A stretch of 38,061 nucleotides of DNA from Candidatus Limnocylindrales bacterium (GCA_035257225.1 DATEXG010000040.1:1-38061), one strand, 5' to 3'. Numbered from the stretch's first letter, positions 15,782 through 21,148 are shown. Made by a program: numbers and translations. Notes: generated from the sequence alone by a model not told the origin.

Positions 15782-17833
15782 ATGTCCCCCGCGGGCGTCA
15801 TCGCCGAGTACCGCCTGCAGGCGCGCCTGATCTGGGAGTGGCGGCCCACTCGGCTTGCGATCGTCCGGCGCACAATCCTGCAGTTCCTTGTGGCGTGCCT
15901 GACGCTAGCCACCGTGGACCTGGTGCTCCCGGAGTTCCACGTGCAGGGACTTGCCGCCATAGCCCTGGGAGGCGCCATGCTGGCCGCGGTCAATGCCGGC
16001 TCGCGCCTGCTGGGGCACTGGCTCCTGGTGGGGCTTCCCCTTCTCGCGGTCGATGGGGTCGCACTCCTCGCACAGTACGTGGCCATCCTCGCTTTGGGTC
16101 GCGTTGTGCCGGGCATCCAGGTGGACGGGCCCGGCACGGCGATCTGGGCGACCGTGTGGCTGACCGCACTCAACGGAGTCCTCGCCGAACTCGTTGCGGT
16201 GAGCGACGACGATTCCTACTACAGCATCCTCGTCCGCCGTCTCGTCGCCCGTCGCGGACGAGATGCCGTATCGAAGGGGCGTGGGCTCCTCGTCGTCCAG
16301 CTGGACGGAGTTGGACGTCCGGTCCTCGAGAATGCCATGCGGGCCGGCCACGTCCCGGTGATCGGGCGGCTCATTCGCACTGGCCGGTCAGCCCTGCATT
16401 CGTGGCAGCCGCTGCTCCCGCCCACCACCCCCGCGAGCCAGGCGGGCATCCTGCATGGTCGCGCCGATGCCGTGCCCGGCTTCCGCTGGTACGAAAAGGA
16501 GACGGGCCGGCTGTTGGTTGCCAACCATCCGGACGATGCGGCCGAGATCTTGCGGCGCATCAGCGACGGCCGCGGTCTGCTTGCCGACGACGGAGCCAGC
16601 ATCGGCAACCTGGTCAGCGGCGATGCGCCACGGAGCTACCTCACCATGGCCACGGTTGGGCGAAAGGAAGCATCCGATGACGGACGCAAGCTGCGCGGCT
16701 TCTTTGTCGGAACGGTCAACTACCTGCGCCTCTTCATGTTGACCCTCGGTGAGATGGCCAAGGAGTTGTATCAGGCCGAGCGCCAGCGAAGCCGTGGCAT
16801 CAGTCCGCGCATGCATCGCGGTCTGTTCTACGCGCTCGAGCGAGCCGTCACGAACGTGGCCCTGCGGACCGTGTCCACGTCTCTGGTGATCGAGGAGATG
16901 TATCGCGGCGCCCCGGTCATCTACGTCGACTACACGGGATACGACGCCGTGGCGCATCACTGCGGTCCGCAACGCCAGGAGGCCATCGACGCGCTGGAGG
17001 GGATCGACCGGTCCATCGGATCGCTCCTGAAGGCTGCTCGGCACGCCGCGCGCAACTACGACCTTGTCGCTCTCTCCGACCATGGTCAGAGCCTCGGCGC
17101 AACCTTTCGGCAGCTCTATGGACAGTCTCTGGAGGCAGTTGTTGCCGCGCTCATCGCGGGAGGGGCGACCGTGATCGGCGGGGGCGACTTGCACGAGCAC
17201 GCGGGAGGCGGCCGACGCATCGCGGGCGAGCTTGGCAGAGGATCGGGGCTGGCGCCCTTCGTGGCTCGCCGCTTCTCCTCCCGACCCAGTCCGAGTCGGT
17301 CCGGCTCTGCCGGGGCTCCGGCGAGCTCAGTCACGCCGGACGTCGTGGTTTGCTCGTCGGGCAGCCTGGCTCACGTCTATTTCACGCAACTGGCCGGCCG
17401 GATGACGCGCGAGGCGATCGAGCAGCGCTATCCGGGGCTGATAGCCGGCCTGGTGCGCCACCCCGGCATCGGGGCGGTCCTGGCATACAGCGAGGATGGG
17501 CGGACGCTCGTCATCGGAGAGAGCGGGGAGCGGACTATTCACGGGACCTCCGGCGCCGCCCCGGATCCTTTGGCCCAGTTTGGGGACGGCGCGAGTGTCG
17601 CCCTGGCGAGCCTGGACGAATTGGCGCACCTGGGGGATCTCATTCTCCTGGGACGGGTCAACCCGGAATCCGGGGAGGTGGTCGGATTCGAGGAGCTCGT
17701 CGGCTCCCACGGAGGGCTCGGGGGGTGGCAGACACAGCCCTTCCTCATGTGCCCTGCCTCGTGGTCGCTCGCGGCCGATCCGATCGTCGGCGCCTCGGCG
17801 ATGCACCGCCAGTTGCGCGACTGGCTGGTATGA
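15782..17833 (+). CDS. membrane-anchored alkaline phosphatase / nucleotide pyrophosphatase-phosphodiesterase family protein
   Basis: An N-terminal multi-TM region of about 150 aa is followed by LLVVQLDGVG...LLPPTTPASQAGILHG (metal/nucleophile Thr region) and DYTGYDAVAHHCG / LSDHGQS motifs typical of the type-I phosphodiesterase superfamily. The start is 3 nt after the Nramp stop (TGACCGATG). Confidence 0.8.
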   Translation: MSPAGVIAEYRLQARLIWEWRPTRLAIVRRTILQFLVACLTLATVDLVLPEFHVQGLAAIALGGAMLAAVNAGSRLLGHWLLVGLPLLAVDGVALLAQYVAILALGRVVPGIQVDGPGTAIWATVWLTALNGVLAELVAVSDDDSYYSILVRRLVARRGRDAVSKGRGLLVVQLDGVGRPVLENAMRAGHVPVIGRLIRTGRSALHSWQPLLPPTTPASQAGILHGRADAVPGFRWYEKETGRLLVANHPDDAAEILRRISDGRGLLADDGASIGNLVSGDAPRSYLTMATVGRKEASDDGRKLRGFFVGTVNYLRLFMLTLGEMAKELYQAERQRSRGISPRMHRGLFYALERAVTNVALRTVSTSLVIEEMYRGAPVIYVDYTGYDAVAHHCGPQRQEAIDALEGIDRSIGSLLKAARHAARNYDLVALSDHGQSLGATFRQLYGQSLEAVVAALIAGGATVIGGGDLHEHAGGGRRIAGELGRGSGLAPFVARRFSSRPSPSRSGSAGAPASSVTPDVVVCSSGSLAHVYFTQLAGRMTREAIEQRYPGLIAGLVRHPGIGAVLAYSEDGRTLVIGESGERTIHGTSGAAPDPLAQFGDGASVALASLDELAHLGDLILLGRVNPESGEVVGFEELVGSHGGLGGWQTQPFLMCPASWSLAADPIVGASAMHRQLRDWLV

Positions 17834-17852
17834 CCGCGCGGCGCCGGATGGG

Positions 17853-18650
17853 CTATCCCTTGGCCTTGCCGAGTTCCGTGATCACCGAACGGAACGGTTC
17901 GGCGTAGCCGGTGAAGCCGGCGAAGATGCGCCGAACCTCCTCCGGCGGGCGGCCCGACTTCAATAGCCCGGCGCTCCAGCTCTTCGCGTTGGCGTTGGCG
18001 CGCGGTCCGAAGCAGCCGTAGCAGCCGCGGTCGTAGGACGGGCAAAGGGCGTTGCAGCCGGACGTTGTCACGGGGCCCATGCAGGCTTCGCCCGAGGCGA
18101 CGACGAGGCACACGATGCCCTTGCGCTTGCACTCGCGGCACACAGCCTCGTCGCGGATCTGGGGCCGGCGACCGACGAGCACCGCCGTCAGCAGCTCGGT
18201 CAGCTGGCCCGGATCGATGGGGCAGCCGCGCAGCTCACCGTCCACCTTGACGTGCTCCGCAACGGGCGTGGCCTTGGCCAGCGACTCGATCCACTCCGGA
18301 TGCTCGTAGACGGCAGCCCGGTAGGCATCGTGGTCCGCCCAGTTGCGCAGCGCCTGGATCCCACCGGCAGTGGCGCAGGCTCCGATGGTGACCAGGATGC
18401 GGGCCTGCGTCCGCAGCTCTTTGATCTGGTCGATGTGCTCGGGTGCGCTGATCGACCCTTCCACGAAGACGATGTCATAGGGCCCGGGCGACCGGCGCGA
18501 GGTTGCCTCGGGGAACTCGACGATGTCGAAGCGGGAGACGATCTCGAGGAGCTCGTCCTCCAGATCGAGCAGCGTGAGCTGGCAGCCGTCGCAGGAGGCG
18601 AACTTGGCGACGGCGACGCGCGGTCGGGCGGTCCTGCCGGTGGTTGCCAT
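17853..18650 (-). CDS. [NiFe]-hydrogenase small-subunit-like / NuoB-like FeS protein (sulfhydrogenase delta-type)
   Basis: KFASCDGCQ, TIGACATAGGIQ and RGCPI form the proximal-cluster Cys pattern of hydrogenase small subunits. A Cys-rich tail follows (CRECKRKGIVC...CMGPVTTSGCNALCPSYDRGCYGC). The ATG overlaps the upstream stop (TGATG). Confidence 0.8.
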   Translation of the reverse strand: MATTGRTARPRVAVAKFASCDGCQLTLLDLEDELLEIVSRFDIVEFPEATSRRSPGPYDIVFVEGSISAPEHIDQIKELRTQARILVTIGACATAGGIQALRNWADHDAYRAAVYEHPEWIESLAKATPVAEHVKVDGELRGCPIDPGQLTELLTAVLVGRRPQIRDEAVCRECKRKGIVCLVVASGEACMGPVTTSGCNALCPSYDRGCYGCFGPRANANAKSWSAGLLKSGRPPEEVRRIFAGFTGYAEPFRSVITELGKAKG

Positions 18651-20629
18651 CAGATCCCCTCACGGTTGAAGAGGTCCCCGAGCTCATTGAGCCGGAACAC
18701 CGGACCGTCCTTGCAGACGAAGCGGCCGCCCATCTGGCAGTGGCCGCACAGGCCGATGCCGCATTCCATGTGGCGCTCCATCGAGACGCAGATGCGGTCG
18801 GCCGGAACGCCCTTGGAGATCAGGCCCTGGACGGAAGCCTGCATCATCCGCTCCGGTCCCACGACGAAGGCCGTGACCTTGGTGCAGTCCCACGAGATCA
18901 TGTCGAACAAAGTCGTGACGACACCGACGCGGCCCTTCCACTCCGGTCCGGCCCGGTCCACCGTGATCGCGACGTCGATGGCCTTGCCGGCGGACCAAGC
19001 GGCGAGATCGTCGCGGAAGAGCTGGTCCTCGGGCGTTCGAGAGCCGTAGAAGAGCGAGACCGACTCGAATCGATCGTGGTTCGCTACGAGCGCGTCCACC
19101 AAGCCGTGGAGCGGCGACAGACCGACGCCACCGGCCACCACCACGGCGTGCCGGCCGTAGGCCTCCTCGACCGGCCAGAAGGTGCCCAGAGGGCCTCGCA
19201 GACCGACCTTGGCGCCCTGGTGGAGATTGGTGAGCGCCGTCGAAGTGGGCCCGACTGCCCGTATCGTGAGATCGATCCCGTTCGCCCGGAAGCGAGAGAT
19301 CGAGATCGGCACGGCCGGGAAGGCGGGCAGGGCGATCATCACGAACTGGCCCGGCCGGCCGGCCAGGAATGCCGGGTCCACGTCCGTGAGCGTGAGCGTA
19401 GACGTGTCCTCGGTCTCCGGCCTGATCGCAGCGACGCGGGCGATCGAGTATGAGCCGGGGCTGGCGGCGACCGGTTCCACCGCCACCGGCCGGATCACCG
19501 GGGCGATGGGCGGCGCAATGACCCCGAGTTCCTCGCGGACGTCGATCGCGACCGGGCACCAGGTGATGCAGCGGCCGCAGCCGACACAGCCGCTGCTCCC
19601 GAACTGGTCGAACCATGTCGAGAACTTATGGGTTAGCCACTGGCGATAGCGATCGCGCGGGCGGGAGCGGAAGTCACCCCCCGCGACCTTCGCGAAGGCG
19701 ACGTCGAAGCACGAGTCCCACTGCCTCTCCGTAGTACTGCGCCGGCCCTCCATGTCCGACCTCTCGACAACCGAAGTGCAGAAGCAGGTCGGGCAGGACA
19801 TCGTGCAGTTGCCGCATTCGACGCACCGATCCGCGACCACGGCCCAGCGGGGGTGGTCCAGCTGGAGCTTGAGACGCTCGTCTATGCCGGCCATCGGAAG
19901 CGGCTCGCCCATTTGCGTCCGCACCGACTCCACGTTGTCGACGGCGGCGCCCGCCTCCGCATGGCTCGGGCGGCGCGTCGGCAGCTTGGCCACGATGGCC
20001 GCGCCTTCGGGCGAACCGGCATGCACGACGAAGCCTTCGTCGATCTCGGTCATGAGGATGTCGTACCCGCCGTGGACTTCCGGCCCCGTGCCCATCGAAG
20101 TGCAGAAGCACGTGCCCGACGAGGTGGTGCACTGGACCGCGACGATGAAAGCGGCGGCTCGGCGCGCACGGAAGTCCTCGTCCGTGAACTGGCCGCCCAG
20201 GAAGACACGGTCCTGGATCTCCAATGCCGCGATCTCGCAGGCGCGGACACCCAAGAATGCCACCGGTGGAGCCTCCGGCGTTGGCTGCTCGAAGCCGAAC
20301 GACCCGGTTCTGTGGGCACTGGCGATGGGCAAGTTGGGAGGGAACGTGAACCGCTTCCACGAGGTGGGGCCCACGGTGTAGCCGAAGACCCGTTCGTCCG
20401 TCCTGCGCTCGAGGCGGTAGCGTCCGGCCGCCTGTTCGTCGCGCCAGCCTGCCGGAAGGTCGGCGGCCGATTGGATCTCGTCGTAGACGATCGCGTTCTC
20501 TCGGATGGTGGGGCCGATGACGCGCCGGCCGGAGTCGCGCAGACTATCGATCAACACGCCGAGGTCCGCGCGGGCCAGGAACCACTGCCTGGCCGCGGCC
20601 GCGTGGCTGGGGGCAGGTGAAGTGATCAC
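18650..20629 (-). CDS. fused sulfhydrogenase beta-like (4Fe-4S dicluster, AsrA-like) and gamma-like (FAD/NAD(P)-binding, 2Fe-2S, AsrB-like) oxidoreductase
   Basis: The N-half has GVRACEIAAL, CFCTSMG, CVECGNCTMSCPTCFC and CVGCGRCITWCP. The C-half has a ferredoxin-reductase-type fold (GQFVMI, AVVVAGGVGLSPL, FVVGPERMM) and a terminal CGIGLCGHCQ cluster motif. GTG start with AGGAGG upstream. Confidence 0.8.
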   Translation of the reverse strand: MITSPAPSHAAAARQWFLARADLGVLIDSLRDSGRRVIGPTIRENAIVYDEIQSAADLPAGWRDEQAAGRYRLERRTDERVFGYTVGPTSWKRFTFPPNLPIASAHRTGSFGFEQPTPEAPPVAFLGVRACEIAALEIQDRVFLGGQFTDEDFRARRAAAFIVAVQCTTSSGTCFCTSMGTGPEVHGGYDILMTEIDEGFVVHAGSPEGAAIVAKLPTRRPSHAEAGAAVDNVESVRTQMGEPLPMAGIDERLKLQLDHPRWAVVADRCVECGNCTMSCPTCFCTSVVERSDMEGRRSTTERQWDSCFDVAFAKVAGGDFRSRPRDRYRQWLTHKFSTWFDQFGSSGCVGCGRCITWCPVAIDVREELGVIAPPIAPVIRPVAVEPVAASPGSYSIARVAAIRPETEDTSTLTLTDVDPAFLAGRPGQFVMIALPAFPAVPISISRFRANGIDLTIRAVGPTSTALTNLHQGAKVGLRGPLGTFWPVEEAYGRHAVVVAGGVGLSPLHGLVDALVANHDRFESVSLFYGSRTPEDQLFRDDLAAWSAGKAIDVAITVDRAGPEWKGRVGVVTTLFDMISWDCTKVTAFVVGPERMMQASVQGLISKGVPADRICVSMERHMECGIGLCGHCQMGGRFVCKDGPVFRLNELGDLFNREGI

Positions 20630-20683
20630 GGAACGGGCGACCTCCTGGGGGGACTGCTGGCGGGACGAGCTTGCGAACGACCC

Positions 20684-21148
20684 TCAGCGGGCGAATAGAT
20701 CGAGAAGCTGGAGCCGCGTCGCGCGAAGGCGTCGGGCAACAGCCTGGAGAACTCGCGGGTACAGGCTGGCTGCCAGGGCGTGGTCTTCCTTGAGGGCCGC
20801 CCTGAGCTTGGTTCCTTCTATGACAAGTGCCTGGCTCTTCTCGGTAGCCACGACCGTGGATTGGACCTGCATGGCGGCCAGGACGGCGGACCAGCCGAAG
20901 ATGTCACCCGGCTCGACGCTCAAGATCGTGACCGGTCCACGTTCGGGGACGAGGGTTCGCAAGGCAAGTTGCCCCGAGATCAGGATGCCCATCTCGTTGG
21001 CTTCGTCACCCTCGTGGAGGATGACCTCATCCGCTTCGAAGTCCTGTATCACGCCCAGCTTGGCGAGGCGCTCCTGCGTCTCGGGCGCAAGATCGGAGCC
21101 GAACCAGGTGTGGTTGAGCATGGAGATGACCGTGGCGTGATCGTCCAT
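20684..21148 (-). CDS. stand-alone cyclic-nucleotide-binding (CAP effector-type) domain protein, no HTH
   Basis: 154 aa. The beta-roll pattern is VILHEGDEANEMGILISGQLALR...ILSVEPGDIFGWSAVL...ATVVATEKSQALVIEG, followed by the C-helix. The protein ends without a DNA-binding domain. Confidence 0.75.
   Translation of the reverse strand: MDDHATVISMLNHTWFGSDLAPETQERLAKLGVIQDFEADEVILHEGDEANEMGILISGQLALRTLVPERGPVTILSVEPGDIFGWSAVLAAMQVQSTVVATEKSQALVIEGTKLRAALKEDHALAASLYPRVLQAVARRLRATRLQLLDLFAR

What the first reader, a model, noticed from the sequence alone, without database searches (positions are those of the whole stretch)
17853..21148. Group-3b-hydrogenase-like electron-transfer module (beta-gamma fusion plus delta small subunit) with no catalytic [NiFe] large subunit
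The operon (minus strand) encodes, in order, a cNMP-binding protein, a beta+gamma fusion (4Fe-4S dicluster AsrA/HydB-like plus FAD/NAD(P)/2Fe-2S AsrB/HydG-like), and a hydrogenase small-subunit-type FeS protein with the CxxC...GxC...GCP proximal-cluster pattern.

In sulfhydrogenase and NADP-coupled group 3b enzymes, the alpha (NiFe) subunit gene immediately follows delta. Here delta ends at 17853, and 19 bp later the convergent phosphatase-family gene ends at 17833. No ORF in any frame shows the RxCGxC / DPCxxC large-subunit motifs, and no hyp maturation genes are present.

The cell therefore appears to keep an NAD(P)H-to-FeS-chain wire whose terminal partner is unknown. One possibility is a large-subunit-independent reductase. 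The beta-gamma pair of the Pyrococcus enzyme has been linked to sulfur/polysulfide reduction. The other possibility is a module that docks to a partner encoded elsewhere.
Basis: partly seen in the sequence, partly recalled or inferred. Interest (0 to 1): 0.65.

Follow-up and report, generated by a model that had tools for sequence, protein, structure and literature searches.

The report
Electron-transfer half of split hydrogenase
This locus encodes the intact electron-transfer subunits of an NAD(P)-linked [NiFe] hydrogenase whose catalytic subunit has moved to another place in the genome and has not been lost, so it is an unusually split enzyme and not a hydrogenase-like wire without a catalyst.

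Summary
Window 17853-21148 (minus strand) encodes a cNMP-domain protein, a beta-gamma fusion and a hydrogenase small subunit (delta). All cluster ligands are intact, and the 38-kb window holds no large subunit (alpha) and no hyp genes. The junction is not a misassembly. The cassette without alpha defines a monophyletic Limnocylindrales clade, is under purifying selection, and is transcribed in soil and wetland samples.

The same genomes carry an unlinked, intact group 3b alpha with its own maturation protease and no small subunit beside it. Evidence:
- In MAG GCA_021789435.1, the cassette is on contig 109 and the orphan alpha plus protease on contig 41.
- The orphan-alpha clade and the cassette-delta clade are both sister to the same linked operon (L003) and have diverged in parallel.
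- GC content matches.
- One alpha allele tracks the window cassette's depth across three metagenomes (16/6/378x versus 15/8/~450x).
- Both halves occur at similar depth in one metatranscriptome.

This is a known enzyme type (group 3b, Hyh/sulfhydrogenase-like) with an uncommon architecture: the small- and large-subunit genes are unlinked. Surveys that require the two genes to be adjacent would miss it.

The parts
20684..21148 (-). First gene of the cassette: a stand-alone cyclic-nucleotide-binding-like domain protein (154 aa) with a non-canonical phosphate-binding cassette
   Evidence: PF00027, E = 2e-16. Found upstream of beta only in the Chloroflexi and Planctomycetota branches of group 3b (20 of 76 loci). 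It has an invariant GWS where CRP has GE, no PBC Arg, and a conserved C-terminal ATRLQLLDLF helix. dN/dS 0.06-0.40.
18650..20629 (-). hyhBG-type beta-gamma fusion (659 aa). The N-terminal AsrA/HydB-like FeS part has 15 conserved Cys. The C-terminal PyrK/AsrB/HydG-like part has the FAD/NAD(P) domain and a 4-Cys [2Fe-2S] site.
   Evidence: Pfam and NCBIfam. PDB 9nez_B E = 1.5e-39 and 9nez_C E = 2.6e-33. 190 of 194 positions conserved in alpha-linked homologues are kept, and all ligand Cys are kept. Lineage-specific changes: T365R, G436A, D494H, P509G, C590V. dN/dS 0.12-0.34. The fusion is a Chloroflexi trait (16 fused versus 56 split loci).
17853..18650 (-). hyhS-type [NiFe]-hydrogenase small subunit (delta, 265 aa) with ligands for three [4Fe-4S] clusters. 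Translationally coupled to beta-gamma (TGATG).
   Evidence: PF01058, with ShyD/HydD hits. 9NEZ/9E1J delta E = 8e-41 over residues 10-257. 12 of 12 Cys invariant. 108 of 113 conserved positions kept. dN/dS 0.07-0.39, with dN as low as LDH/PFK/ThyX. RNA contigs cover it, and one contig crosses the beta-gamma/delta junction. Junction sequence.
17834..17852 (.). 19-nt gap between the convergent stops of delta and the phosphodiesterase-family gene. In related operons alpha and the HycI protease follow delta at this point.
   Evidence: Sequence read directly. Spanned by independent contigs in runs X1-X4. No terminator-like site here. In clade members the slot after delta holds different cargo.

Best explanation
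The locus is the electron-transfer half of a split group 3b (Hyh / sulfhydrogenase-type) NAD(P)-coupled [NiFe]-hydrogenase.

**Layout.** Here the cell encodes a CNB-like protein, the fused diaphorase (beta FeS + gamma FAD/NAD(P)/[2Fe-2S]) and the small subunit delta with three [4Fe-4S] clusters. The catalytic large subunit alpha (437 aa, RICGIC...DPCISCATH plus a C-terminal extension) and its HycI-type endopeptidase are encoded at a separate locus in the same genome, with no small subunit of their own.

**Inferred mechanism, as in P. furiosus SHI.** Electrons pass from H2 at the NiFe site of alpha through the proximal, medial and distal clusters of delta, then the beta clusters, the gamma [2Fe-2S] and FAD, to NAD(P)+, or in reverse.

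**Evolution.** An ancestral L003-like operon (cNMP-betagamma-delta-alpha-hycI) was split in the ancestor of this Limnocylindrales clade. Both halves have since co-diverged under purifying selection.

**Shown.**
- The cassette is intact, conserved and transcribed.
- Orphan alpha-plus-protease loci exist in the same MAG.
- The phylogenies are congruent.
- Alpha and cassette depths covary.

**Inferred.**
- The window's own genome carries the orphan alpha.
- The two halves assemble into one enzyme.
- The direction of the reaction and the nucleotide specificity.
For: 1. **Same-assembly co-occurrence.** GCA_021789435.1 has cNMP-betagamma-delta on JAJYJO010000109 (L085). It has alpha plus a HycI-like ORF, with no delta, beta-gamma or cNMP gene within +-10 kb, on JAJYJO010000041 (L178). 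GC is 73.9% versus 73.5%.
2. **The orphan-alpha arrangement is common.** It recurs in L176 and in L179-L184 (12 contigs for P0249). L179 GC is 67.8%; the window is 68.0%.
3. **The orphan alpha is intact.** The clade (85 full-length proteins of at least 430 aa) has both Ni motifs in 84 of 85, keeps 168 of 175 conserved positions, and has dN/dS 0.24-0.33. Best matches are ShyA/HydA and 9nez_D, E = 5e-67. The neighbouring ORF is a maturation protease (TIGR00072, 68 bits against a 47-bit cut-off; PF01750).
4. **Congruent phylogeny.** The cassette-delta clade is monophyletic in 100/100 bootstraps and the orphan-alpha clade in 86/100. Both are sister to the same linked operon, L003. Divergence is parallel: delta/alpha identities are 0.86/0.84, 0.77/0.72 and 0.67/0.65.
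5. **Depth covariance for the window's own strain.** One alpha allele (G>T at L004:11265 plus an identical 30-nt flank) has depth 16.4x in X1, 5.7x in X2 and 378x in X3. The cassette has 14-16x, 7.7-8.3x and 350-540x.
6. **Co-expression.** In metatranscriptome X25 the cassette contigs are at 12-15x and an orphan-clade alpha contig is at 13.4x.
7. **Reciprocal pattern.** The sister operons read cNMP-betagamma-delta-alpha-HycI. The genes missing here are exactly those found at the orphan locus.
Against: - **No closed genome.** For the window's strain the link rests on depth covariance. The X2 value comes from a 98-nt unitig, and the allele was not seen in the low-coverage run X4. The remaining support comes from relatives.
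- **MAG binning can be wrong**, although GC, phylogeny and depth all agree.
- **A confounding MAG.** In GCA_036392215.1 the orphan-clade alpha has a linked beta-gamma-delta of a different lineage (L177). In that genome the cassette is not alpha's only possible partner.
- **Some relaxation in delta.** The proximal-cluster loops are about twice as variable in the cassette clade as in an equally deep alpha-linked clade. A few positions invariant in 58 linked delta subunits vary: R53, G200, E218.
- **No hyp maturation genes** were seen in any accessible DNA.
- **No biochemical evidence** that the two halves assemble.
Confidence: 0.77

Rival explanations
1. One reading: a large-subunit-independent NAD(P)H-linked FeS oxidoreductase. 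Beta-gamma-delta works alone as a diaphorase or sulfur/polysulfide reductase, or feeds an unknown partner that is not a hydrogenase.
For: - The cassette is conserved without an adjacent alpha across at least 8 lineages, with varied neighbours.
- Beta-gamma has been called the sulfur-reducing component of sulfhydrogenase (PMC5596200).
- Delta's proximal loops show modest relaxation, and the gamma flavin/NAD(P) domain has lineage-specific changes such as C590V and D494H.
- In GCA_036392215.1 alpha has its own linked beta-gamma-delta, so the cassette there could serve another role.
Against: - An intact orphan alpha plus protease that lacks any small subunit sits in the same MAG and has co-diverged with the cassette. 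An alpha without a small subunit has no other evident electron outlet.
- Delta keeps 108 of 113 conserved positions, and its proximal-cluster loops remain its most conserved parts.
- Alpha and cassette show matching depth and expression.
Confidence: 0.08
2. An exchangeable-module variant. The cassette is one of two or more alternative diaphorase/small-subunit modules that can serve the same alpha, for example under different regulation through the CNB-like protein or with a different nucleotide preference. It would not be alpha's sole partner.
For: - GCA_036392215.1 holds both the cassette (L083) and an alpha-linked beta-gamma-delta of a different lineage (L177).
- The sister operons L004 and L007 carry a second beta-gamma paralogue after the protease.
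- The cassette's gamma domain has lineage-specific changes.
Against: - In most members (L178, L179-184, L176) no second beta-gamma-delta lies near alpha.
- Whole genomes could not be searched for further copies.
- There are no expression data separating the modules.
Confidence: 0.12
3. A decaying remnant of a hydrogenase operon after loss of alpha.
For: - Alpha and the protease are absent from the locus.
- In the independent alpha-less Planctomycetaceae pair, L033 appears to keep only gamma-delta.
Against: - dN/dS is 0.07-0.39, with dN as low as housekeeping neighbours.
- All 12 + 19 ligand Cys are intact.
- All ORFs are intact across about 30 clusters at 90% identity.
- The cassette is transcribed.
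Confidence: 0.01
4. An assembly artefact: alpha was dropped by a misjoin at 17833-17853.
For: None beyond the unusually tight 19-nt convergent junction.
Against: - Contigs from four independent runs span the junction.
- At least eight related lineages from different assemblies lack alpha after delta.
Confidence: 0.01

Closest known systems
Pyrococcus furiosus soluble hydrogenase I / sulfhydrogenase (HydBGDA; PDB 9NEZ, 9NF0, 9E1J) and Thermococcus kodakarensis cytosolic NiFe hydrogenase (5YXY)
   Same: The same four components with full-length homology: delta E = 8e-41, beta 1.5e-39, gamma 2.6e-33, and orphan alpha 5e-67. All cluster ligands and Ni motifs are present. A C-terminal extension and a dedicated protease are present.
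   Different: Beta and gamma are fused into one 659-aa protein. A CNB-like gene is added. Alpha and the protease are encoded at a separate locus, not directly after delta. All NCBIfam scores are far below equivalog cut-offs, so this is a distant bacterial relative and not an orthologue.
Bacterial group 3b Hyh (hyhBGSL) operons, here represented by the linked Chloroflexi loci L003, L004, L088 and L089. Hyd3 of Mycobacterium smegmatis is the studied example (from my own knowledge, not tested here).
   Same: Same gene families and order, cNMP-betagamma-delta-alpha-hycI. The cassette delta and the orphan alpha are each sister to L003.
   Different: Operon continuity is broken. In 75 of 80 genome loci and 57 of 57 metagenome alpha loci, S and L are adjacent. 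In this clade they are not.
Archaeal hybrid [FeFe]/[NiFe] hydrogenases with a HyhS domain fused to HydA (PMC11216029)
   Same: They show that the group 3 small subunit is modular and can be re-deployed.
   Different: Those complexes still have HyhL adjacent and add an [FeFe] domain. Here nothing new is added. The standard partner is simply unlinked.
Anaerobic sulfite reductase AsrAB electron-transfer pair
   Same: Beta-gamma is homologous to AsrA/AsrB (TIGR02910 and TIGR02911 hits).
   Different: There is no AsrC-like siroheme subunit. A hydrogenase small subunit follows instead. Scores are below the Asr cut-offs.

Membership tests
Group 3b [NiFe]-hydrogenase (Hyh / sulfhydrogenase type) | Small subunit of the Oxidored_q6 fold with Cys ligands for proximal, medial and distal [4Fe-4S] clusters | tested here: met
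   PF01058. Full-length match to SHI delta. 12 of 12 Cys invariant.
Group 3b [NiFe]-hydrogenase (Hyh / sulfhydrogenase type) | Diaphorase pair: a beta FeS subunit (AsrA/HydB-like) and a gamma FAD/NAD(P)/[2Fe-2S] subunit (HydG-like) | tested here: met
   Pfam, NCBIfam and PDB hits. All 15 + 4 Cys conserved. Present as a fusion.
Group 3b [NiFe]-hydrogenase (Hyh / sulfhydrogenase type) | Catalytic large subunit with RxCGxC and DPCxxC Ni-binding motifs, encoded in the window or locus | tested here: not met
   No PF00374 hit and no tblastn hit in the 38 kb.
Group 3b [NiFe]-hydrogenase (Hyh / sulfhydrogenase type) | Catalytic large subunit present in the same genome | tested here: inconclusive
   Met for a clade member: the same MAG, GCA_021789435.1, holds L085 and L178. 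For the window's own strain it is only inferred, from depth covariance, GC and congruent phylogeny. The whole genome was not available.
Group 3b [NiFe]-hydrogenase (Hyh / sulfhydrogenase type) | Small- and large-subunit genes adjacent in one operon (the usual architecture, used as a criterion in surveys) | tested here: not met
   Alpha is absent after delta here and in at least 8 related lineages. Orphan alpha has no delta within +-10 kb. The survey criterion is quoted.
Group 3b [NiFe]-hydrogenase (Hyh / sulfhydrogenase type) | Dedicated C-terminal endopeptidase and a cleavable C-terminal extension on alpha | tested here: met
   Seen at the orphan alpha loci, not in the window. TIGR00072 at 68 bits against a 47-bit cut-off, PF01750. 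Alpha ends ...DPCISCATHFLNLEIDRD.
Group 3b [NiFe]-hydrogenase (Hyh / sulfhydrogenase type) | Hyp maturation machinery (hypABCDEF) in the genome | not testable with these tools
   None in the window and none in the +-10 kb around the orphan alpha. The rest of the genome could not be searched.
Group 3b [NiFe]-hydrogenase (Hyh / sulfhydrogenase type) | Formal subgroup assignment of alpha (HydDB) and H2:NAD(P) activity | not testable with these tools
   HydDB is not available. The nearest curated families are ShyA/HydA, below cut-off. There is no biochemistry.
Anaerobic sulfite reductase AsrABC | AsrC siroheme catalytic subunit following AsrA and AsrB, with equivalog-level scores | tested here: not met
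   No AsrC-like gene. AsrA scores 122 bits against a 323-bit cut-off and AsrB 191 against 289.
Canonical cNMP-binding (CAP/PKA-type) sensor | Phosphate-binding cassette with conserved Glu and Arg (GE...R[ST]A) | tested here: not met
   Invariant GWS and no Arg at the PBC position in 17 homologues. The CRP landmark sequence was taken from memory.

The most novel reading that the evidence does not exclude
The trans-encoded cassette is an exchangeable module and not merely a displaced operon half. One catalytic alpha would be served by alternative beta-gamma-delta sets: this CNB-associated cassette, and the differently derived set linked to alpha in GCA_036392215.1. The extra beta-gamma paralogues in L004 and L007 would be a related case. 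This would let the cell switch the cofactor coupling or the regulation of a single [NiFe] site. Alternatively, the cassette might also have an alpha-independent reductase activity.
Probability: 0.15. Interest if true: 0.6.

Novelty: new variant of a known kind. Interest (0 to 1): 0.35.

Why it matters
1. **It corrects a tempting over-interpretation.** A [NiFe] small subunit without an adjacent large subunit need not be a new kind of reductase. The partner can be elsewhere in the genome.
2. **The architecture is unusual.** Small- and large-subunit genes of [NiFe]-hydrogenases are adjacent almost without exception: 75 of 80 and 57 of 57 loci examined here. A stable, expressed and co-diverging split into two loci is uncommon. 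It raises the questions of how stoichiometric expression and assembly are kept up in trans.
3. **It affects surveys.** Hydrogenase surveys that find enzymes by the large subunit and then require a small subunit nearby would exclude these genomes (the criterion is quoted). Annotation pipelines label the cassette 'sulfhydrogenase delta' or 'F420 hydrogenase gamma'. The lineage is abundant in peat (about 450x in one metagenome), so H2-cycling potential in peat Limnocylindrales may be under-counted.

Tried and rejected
- **Motif test on the adjacent ORF.** Testing only the ORF after delta for RxCGxC/DPCxxC wrongly flagged about 20 loci as alpha-less. tblastn corrected this to 5 of 80.
- **Metagenome scan with sister-clade alpha.** It found delta adjacent in 57 of 57 cases, which I first read as evidence against an orphan alpha. 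The test was blind, because the kept top 80 stopped at about 68% identity and the orphan clade is 61-67% identical to that query.
- **Conservation and entropy tests on delta and beta-gamma.** They could not by themselves separate 'partner lost' from 'partner elsewhere'.
- **Laying reads on L088.** L004 was used instead.
- **Laying reads at 95%.** This cannot find a remote alpha, since nucleotide identity to the sister clade is about 70%. It worked only at 80% on the most conserved alpha segment.
- **Linking delta and alpha by NCBI accession blocks.** This failed because the delta entries carry no accession numbers.
- **Search with a short 67-aa probe.** It returned only short fragment proteins. 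That was lucky, because one of them, P0121, led to L176.
- **Two-paralogous-operon scenario with reciprocal loss.** A small tree suggested it, but bootstrapped trees with 47 linked pairs did not support it. The cassette delta and the orphan alpha are both sister to L003, and L177's own delta is of another lineage.
- **Literature searches for alpha-less or orphan small subunits.** Nothing was found.
- **Structure prediction.** Not run. Only monomers can be modelled, and the sequence matches to the SHI subunits are already full-length.


Full report
**1. What is at the coordinates**

The minus strand of 17853-21148 carries three tightly packed ORFs:
- a 154-aa cNMP-binding-domain protein (20684-21148);
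- a 659-aa protein (18650-20629) that combines a Fer4_22 FeS domain with NAD_binding_1 and a DHODB-type [2Fe-2S] domain;
- a 265-aa Oxidored_q6 protein (17853-18650).

Pfam and NCBIfam and the PDB identify the last two as a beta-gamma fusion and the delta small subunit of a sulfhydrogenase/group 3b-type [NiFe]-hydrogenase. P. furiosus SHI delta scores E = 8e-41, beta 1.5e-39 and gamma 2.6e-33.

The beta-gamma stop and the delta start overlap (TGATG). Delta's stop is 19 nt from the stop of a convergent 683-aa phosphodiesterase-family gene. No NiFe large subunit and no hyp gene is present anywhere in the 38 kb.

**2. The absence of alpha is a lineage trait and not an accident**

The window belongs to peat/soil Chloroflexota labelled Candidatus Limnocylindrales. 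Of 80 genome loci with a delta homologue, 75 have alpha directly after delta. The exceptions are the window's two closest relatives (L001, L002), two Planctomycetaceae loci (L033, L043) and one contig that is too short.

Walking down the identity gradient shows the boundary. Every delta at least 74-78% identical to the window's lacks alpha: L081-L087 and L170-L175, at least eight lineages, with P0012 alone on 17 contigs. Those at 71% or below have delta-alpha-HycI protease (L088, L089).

The alpha-less loci form one clade (100/100 bootstraps). The slot after delta holds different cargo in each lineage: phosphodiesterase + Nramp, a histidine kinase, sigma70 + Kelch, PEMT + CLC, or nothing.

Independent contigs from four DNA runs span the 17833-17853 junction, so misassembly is excluded.

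**3. The cassette is maintained and expressed**

- All 12 delta Cys are invariant.
- All 15 beta Cys and all 4 gamma Cys are invariant.
- 108 of 113 (delta) and 190 of 194 (beta-gamma) positions conserved in alpha-linked homologues are retained.
- Pairwise dN/dS within the clade is 0.07-0.39 for delta, 0.12-0.34 for beta-gamma and 0.06-0.40 for the cNMP protein. dN is as low as for LDH, PFK and ThyX from the same genomes.
- Metatranscriptome contigs 95-99% identical cover delta and beta-gamma in several samples. One contig crosses the beta-gamma/delta junction, and the flanking phosphodiesterase gene is nearly uncovered.

A decaying remnant is excluded.

**4. First, misleading, signs of true loss**

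- The sister operons end in alpha-HycI, and both genes are missing here.
- A metagenome scan with sister-clade alpha found delta adjacent in 57 of 57 cases.
- Delta's proximal-cluster loops are about twice as variable in the cassette clade as in an equally deep alpha-linked clade. A few positions that are otherwise invariant vary: R53, G200, E218.
- The gamma domain has lineage-specific substitutions such as C590V and D494H.

At that stage an alpha-independent function looked plausible.

**5. The turn**

In metagenome X3 the window organism sits at about 350-540x. I laid X3 contigs at 80% identity on a sister operon (L004).

- The positive control worked: contigs at 445-458x landed on beta-gamma and delta.
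- A 1478-nt contig at 378x landed on the conserved L2 region of alpha. Its flanks translate to PQVKALRKL and LRLKRTGNDL, which is group 3b alpha sequence.
- A peptide-probe search led to P0121 and its contig L176. L176 carries a full-length 3b alpha (RICGICP and DPCISCATHF intact, broken only by long-read indels), a HycI-type protease about 1 kb downstream, and no delta, beta-gamma or cNMP gene in 20 kb.

**6. The orphan-alpha clade and its linkage to the cassette**

Searching with that alpha found a large clade of intact 437-aa alphas, 70-95% identical, many named Limnocylindrales. A gap down to 67% or below mirrors the boundary of the cassette-delta clade.

Contexts:
- **L178.** This is contig 41 of GCA_021789435.1, the same MAG whose contig 109 (L085) carries the alpha-less cassette. 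It reads SHOCT-Usp | alpha | HycI-like, with no delta or beta-gamma within +-10 kb.
- **L179-L184.** These cover 12 contigs and read LigD ligase | alpha | 415-aa ORF | protease. GC is 67.8%, against 68.0% for the window.
- **L177.** This is contig 125 of GCA_036392215.1, the same MAG as cassette L083. It has beta-gamma-delta-alpha-HycI behind the same SHOCT-Usp neighbours.

Properties of the orphan alpha:
- Its best matches are ShyA/HydA and 9nez_D (E = 5e-67). The neighbouring ORF passes the curated cut-off for hydrogenase maturation protease.
- It is under purifying selection (dN/dS 0.24-0.33).
- It keeps 168 of 175 conserved positions and has both Ni motifs in 84 of 85 members.
- It has a C-terminal extension for cleavage.

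**7. The two halves belong together**

- **Trees.** With 47 linked delta/alpha pairs added, the cassette-delta clade (100/100) and the orphan-alpha clade (86/100) are each sister to the same linked operon, L003.
- **Parallel divergence.** Delta/alpha identities are 0.86/0.84 (L083-L084 versus L177-L178), 0.77/0.72 (L084-window versus L178-L179) and 0.67/0.65 (to L003).
- **The window's own strain.** One alpha allele (G>T at L004:11265 and an identical 30-nt flank) has depth 16.4x, 5.7x and 378x in runs X1, X2 and X3. The window cassette has 14-16x, 7.7-8.3x and 350-540x. That is a match over a roughly 50-fold range in two unrelated samples.
- **Expression.** In metatranscriptome X25 an orphan-clade alpha contig sits at 13.4x, beside cassette contigs at 12-15x.

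**8. Interpretation**

The simplest account is that an ancestral L003-like operon, cNMP-betagamma-delta-alpha-hycI, was split in the ancestor of this Limnocylindrales clade. Both halves were kept and co-diverged, and together they still encode a group 3b NAD(P)-linked [NiFe]-hydrogenase.

Electron flow (NiFe site, three delta clusters, beta clusters, gamma [2Fe-2S], FAD, NAD(P)) is inferred from homology to SHI. It was not tested.

L177's own delta never groups with the cassette clade (0/100). It sits with L005 and L137/138, so the linked beta-gamma-delta in that MAG looks like a secondary acquisition. This leaves open an exchangeable-module variant of the explanation.

I give it about 8%.

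**9. Limits**

- No closed genome was available.
- The genome-collection scan, the protein searches and the context look-ups were all exhausted.
- hyp genes were not seen in the accessible DNA.
- MAG binning is fallible.
- Depth evidence from Logan unitigs is coarse. The X2 value rests on a 98-nt unitig, and the allele was not detected in the 5x run X4.
- Assembly of delta with the trans-encoded alpha is inferred.

**10. Novelty and score**

The enzyme type is known. The unlinked small- and large-subunit genes are an uncommon variant with a practical consequence: surveys that demand adjacency of the two genes (quoted) would drop these abundant peat bacteria from hydrogenase counts. No report of such a split was found. 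The nearest discussion of small-subunit modularity concerns archaeal hybrid hydrogenases that still keep HyhL adjacent. Interest is moderate to low, at 0.35.

Noticed in passing
L033:9084-10786 and L043:7474-10768 (Planctomycetaceae MAG contigs of 430 and 518 kb): A second, independent lineage lacks alpha after delta. L043 keeps cNMP, beta, gamma and delta. L033 appears to keep only gamma and delta, with a Peripla_BP_2 gene where beta should be. All delta Cys are intact. Whether an orphan alpha exists elsewhere in these genomes is unknown.
   Followed up: partly
L177:7132-11819 (GCA_036392215.1, DASVYJ010000125): In the same MAG as alpha-less cassette L083, the orphan-clade alpha is preceded by a beta-gamma-delta set. 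Its delta belongs to a different lineage: it groups with L005 and L137/138, and groups with the cassette clade in 0 of 100 bootstraps. So this genome has two beta-gamma-delta sets for one alpha. This looks like secondary re-acquisition, or module exchange.
   Followed up: partly
L004:12727-14736 and L007:3327-5330: These sister operons carry a second full-length beta-gamma fusion paralogue (55-56% identical to the window's) after alpha and the protease. No second delta follows it. In L004 the next gene is an NAD-dependent epimerase.
   Followed up: partly
L087:1822-3158 (GCA_036705545.1, 3.2-kb contig): In this cassette-clade member, delta is followed 110 nt later by a NuoE-like 2Fe-2S thioredoxin-like gene and a NuoF-like gene (2Fe-2S_thioredx + Complex1_51K). 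This may be the start of a Hox/bifurcating-type operon. The contig ends there.
   Followed up: no
window:20684-21148 (-): The cNMP-domain protein lacks the canonical PBC Glu and Arg (invariant GWS...[ST][ST]) and has a strongly conserved C-terminal ATRLQLLDLF helix. The gene accompanies group 3b operons only in the Chloroflexi and Planctomycetota branches (20 of 76 loci). It may be a non-nucleotide sensor or an extra subunit.
   Followed up: partly
window:18650-20629 (-), residues 365, 436, 494, 509, 590: Lineage-specific substitutions at positions 87-100% conserved in alpha-linked homologues: T365R, G436A, D494H, P509G, and C590V in the 'CGP' motif. All but T365R lie in the gamma flavin/NAD(P) domain. 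They may reflect a change in nucleotide handling.
   Followed up: no
window:13279-17833 versus L176:570-3409: Homologues of the window's Lactamase_B gene and of the phosphodiesterase gene that abuts delta lie about 7 kb from the orphan alpha in L176. This hints that rearrangements around the old delta/alpha junction moved these genes together.
   Followed up: no
window:15782-17833 (+): The 683-aa gene convergent with delta fuses an N-terminal 4-TM 'Phage_holin_4_2'-like membrane domain to a type I phosphodiesterase / nucleotide pyrophosphatase domain.
   Followed up: no
window:23132-24469 (-): A GreA/GreB-family elongation factor with a roughly 295-residue N-terminal extension that has no Pfam match. 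It is conserved in relatives (432-433 aa in L081 and L170).
   Followed up: no
window:2049-2738 (-): A 229-aa ankyrin-repeat protein in a Chloroflexota genome, next to a class-V aminotransferase.
   Followed up: no
L176 (ENA ERZ25039519 contig_85454): Many genes on this long-read contig (alpha, the phosphodiesterase homologue, SecD, DNA ligase) are shattered across reading frames. The protein database therefore holds many short 'NiFeSe_Hases' fragments on long contigs. These are assembly-error artefacts and could be mistaken for pseudogenes.
   Followed up: partly
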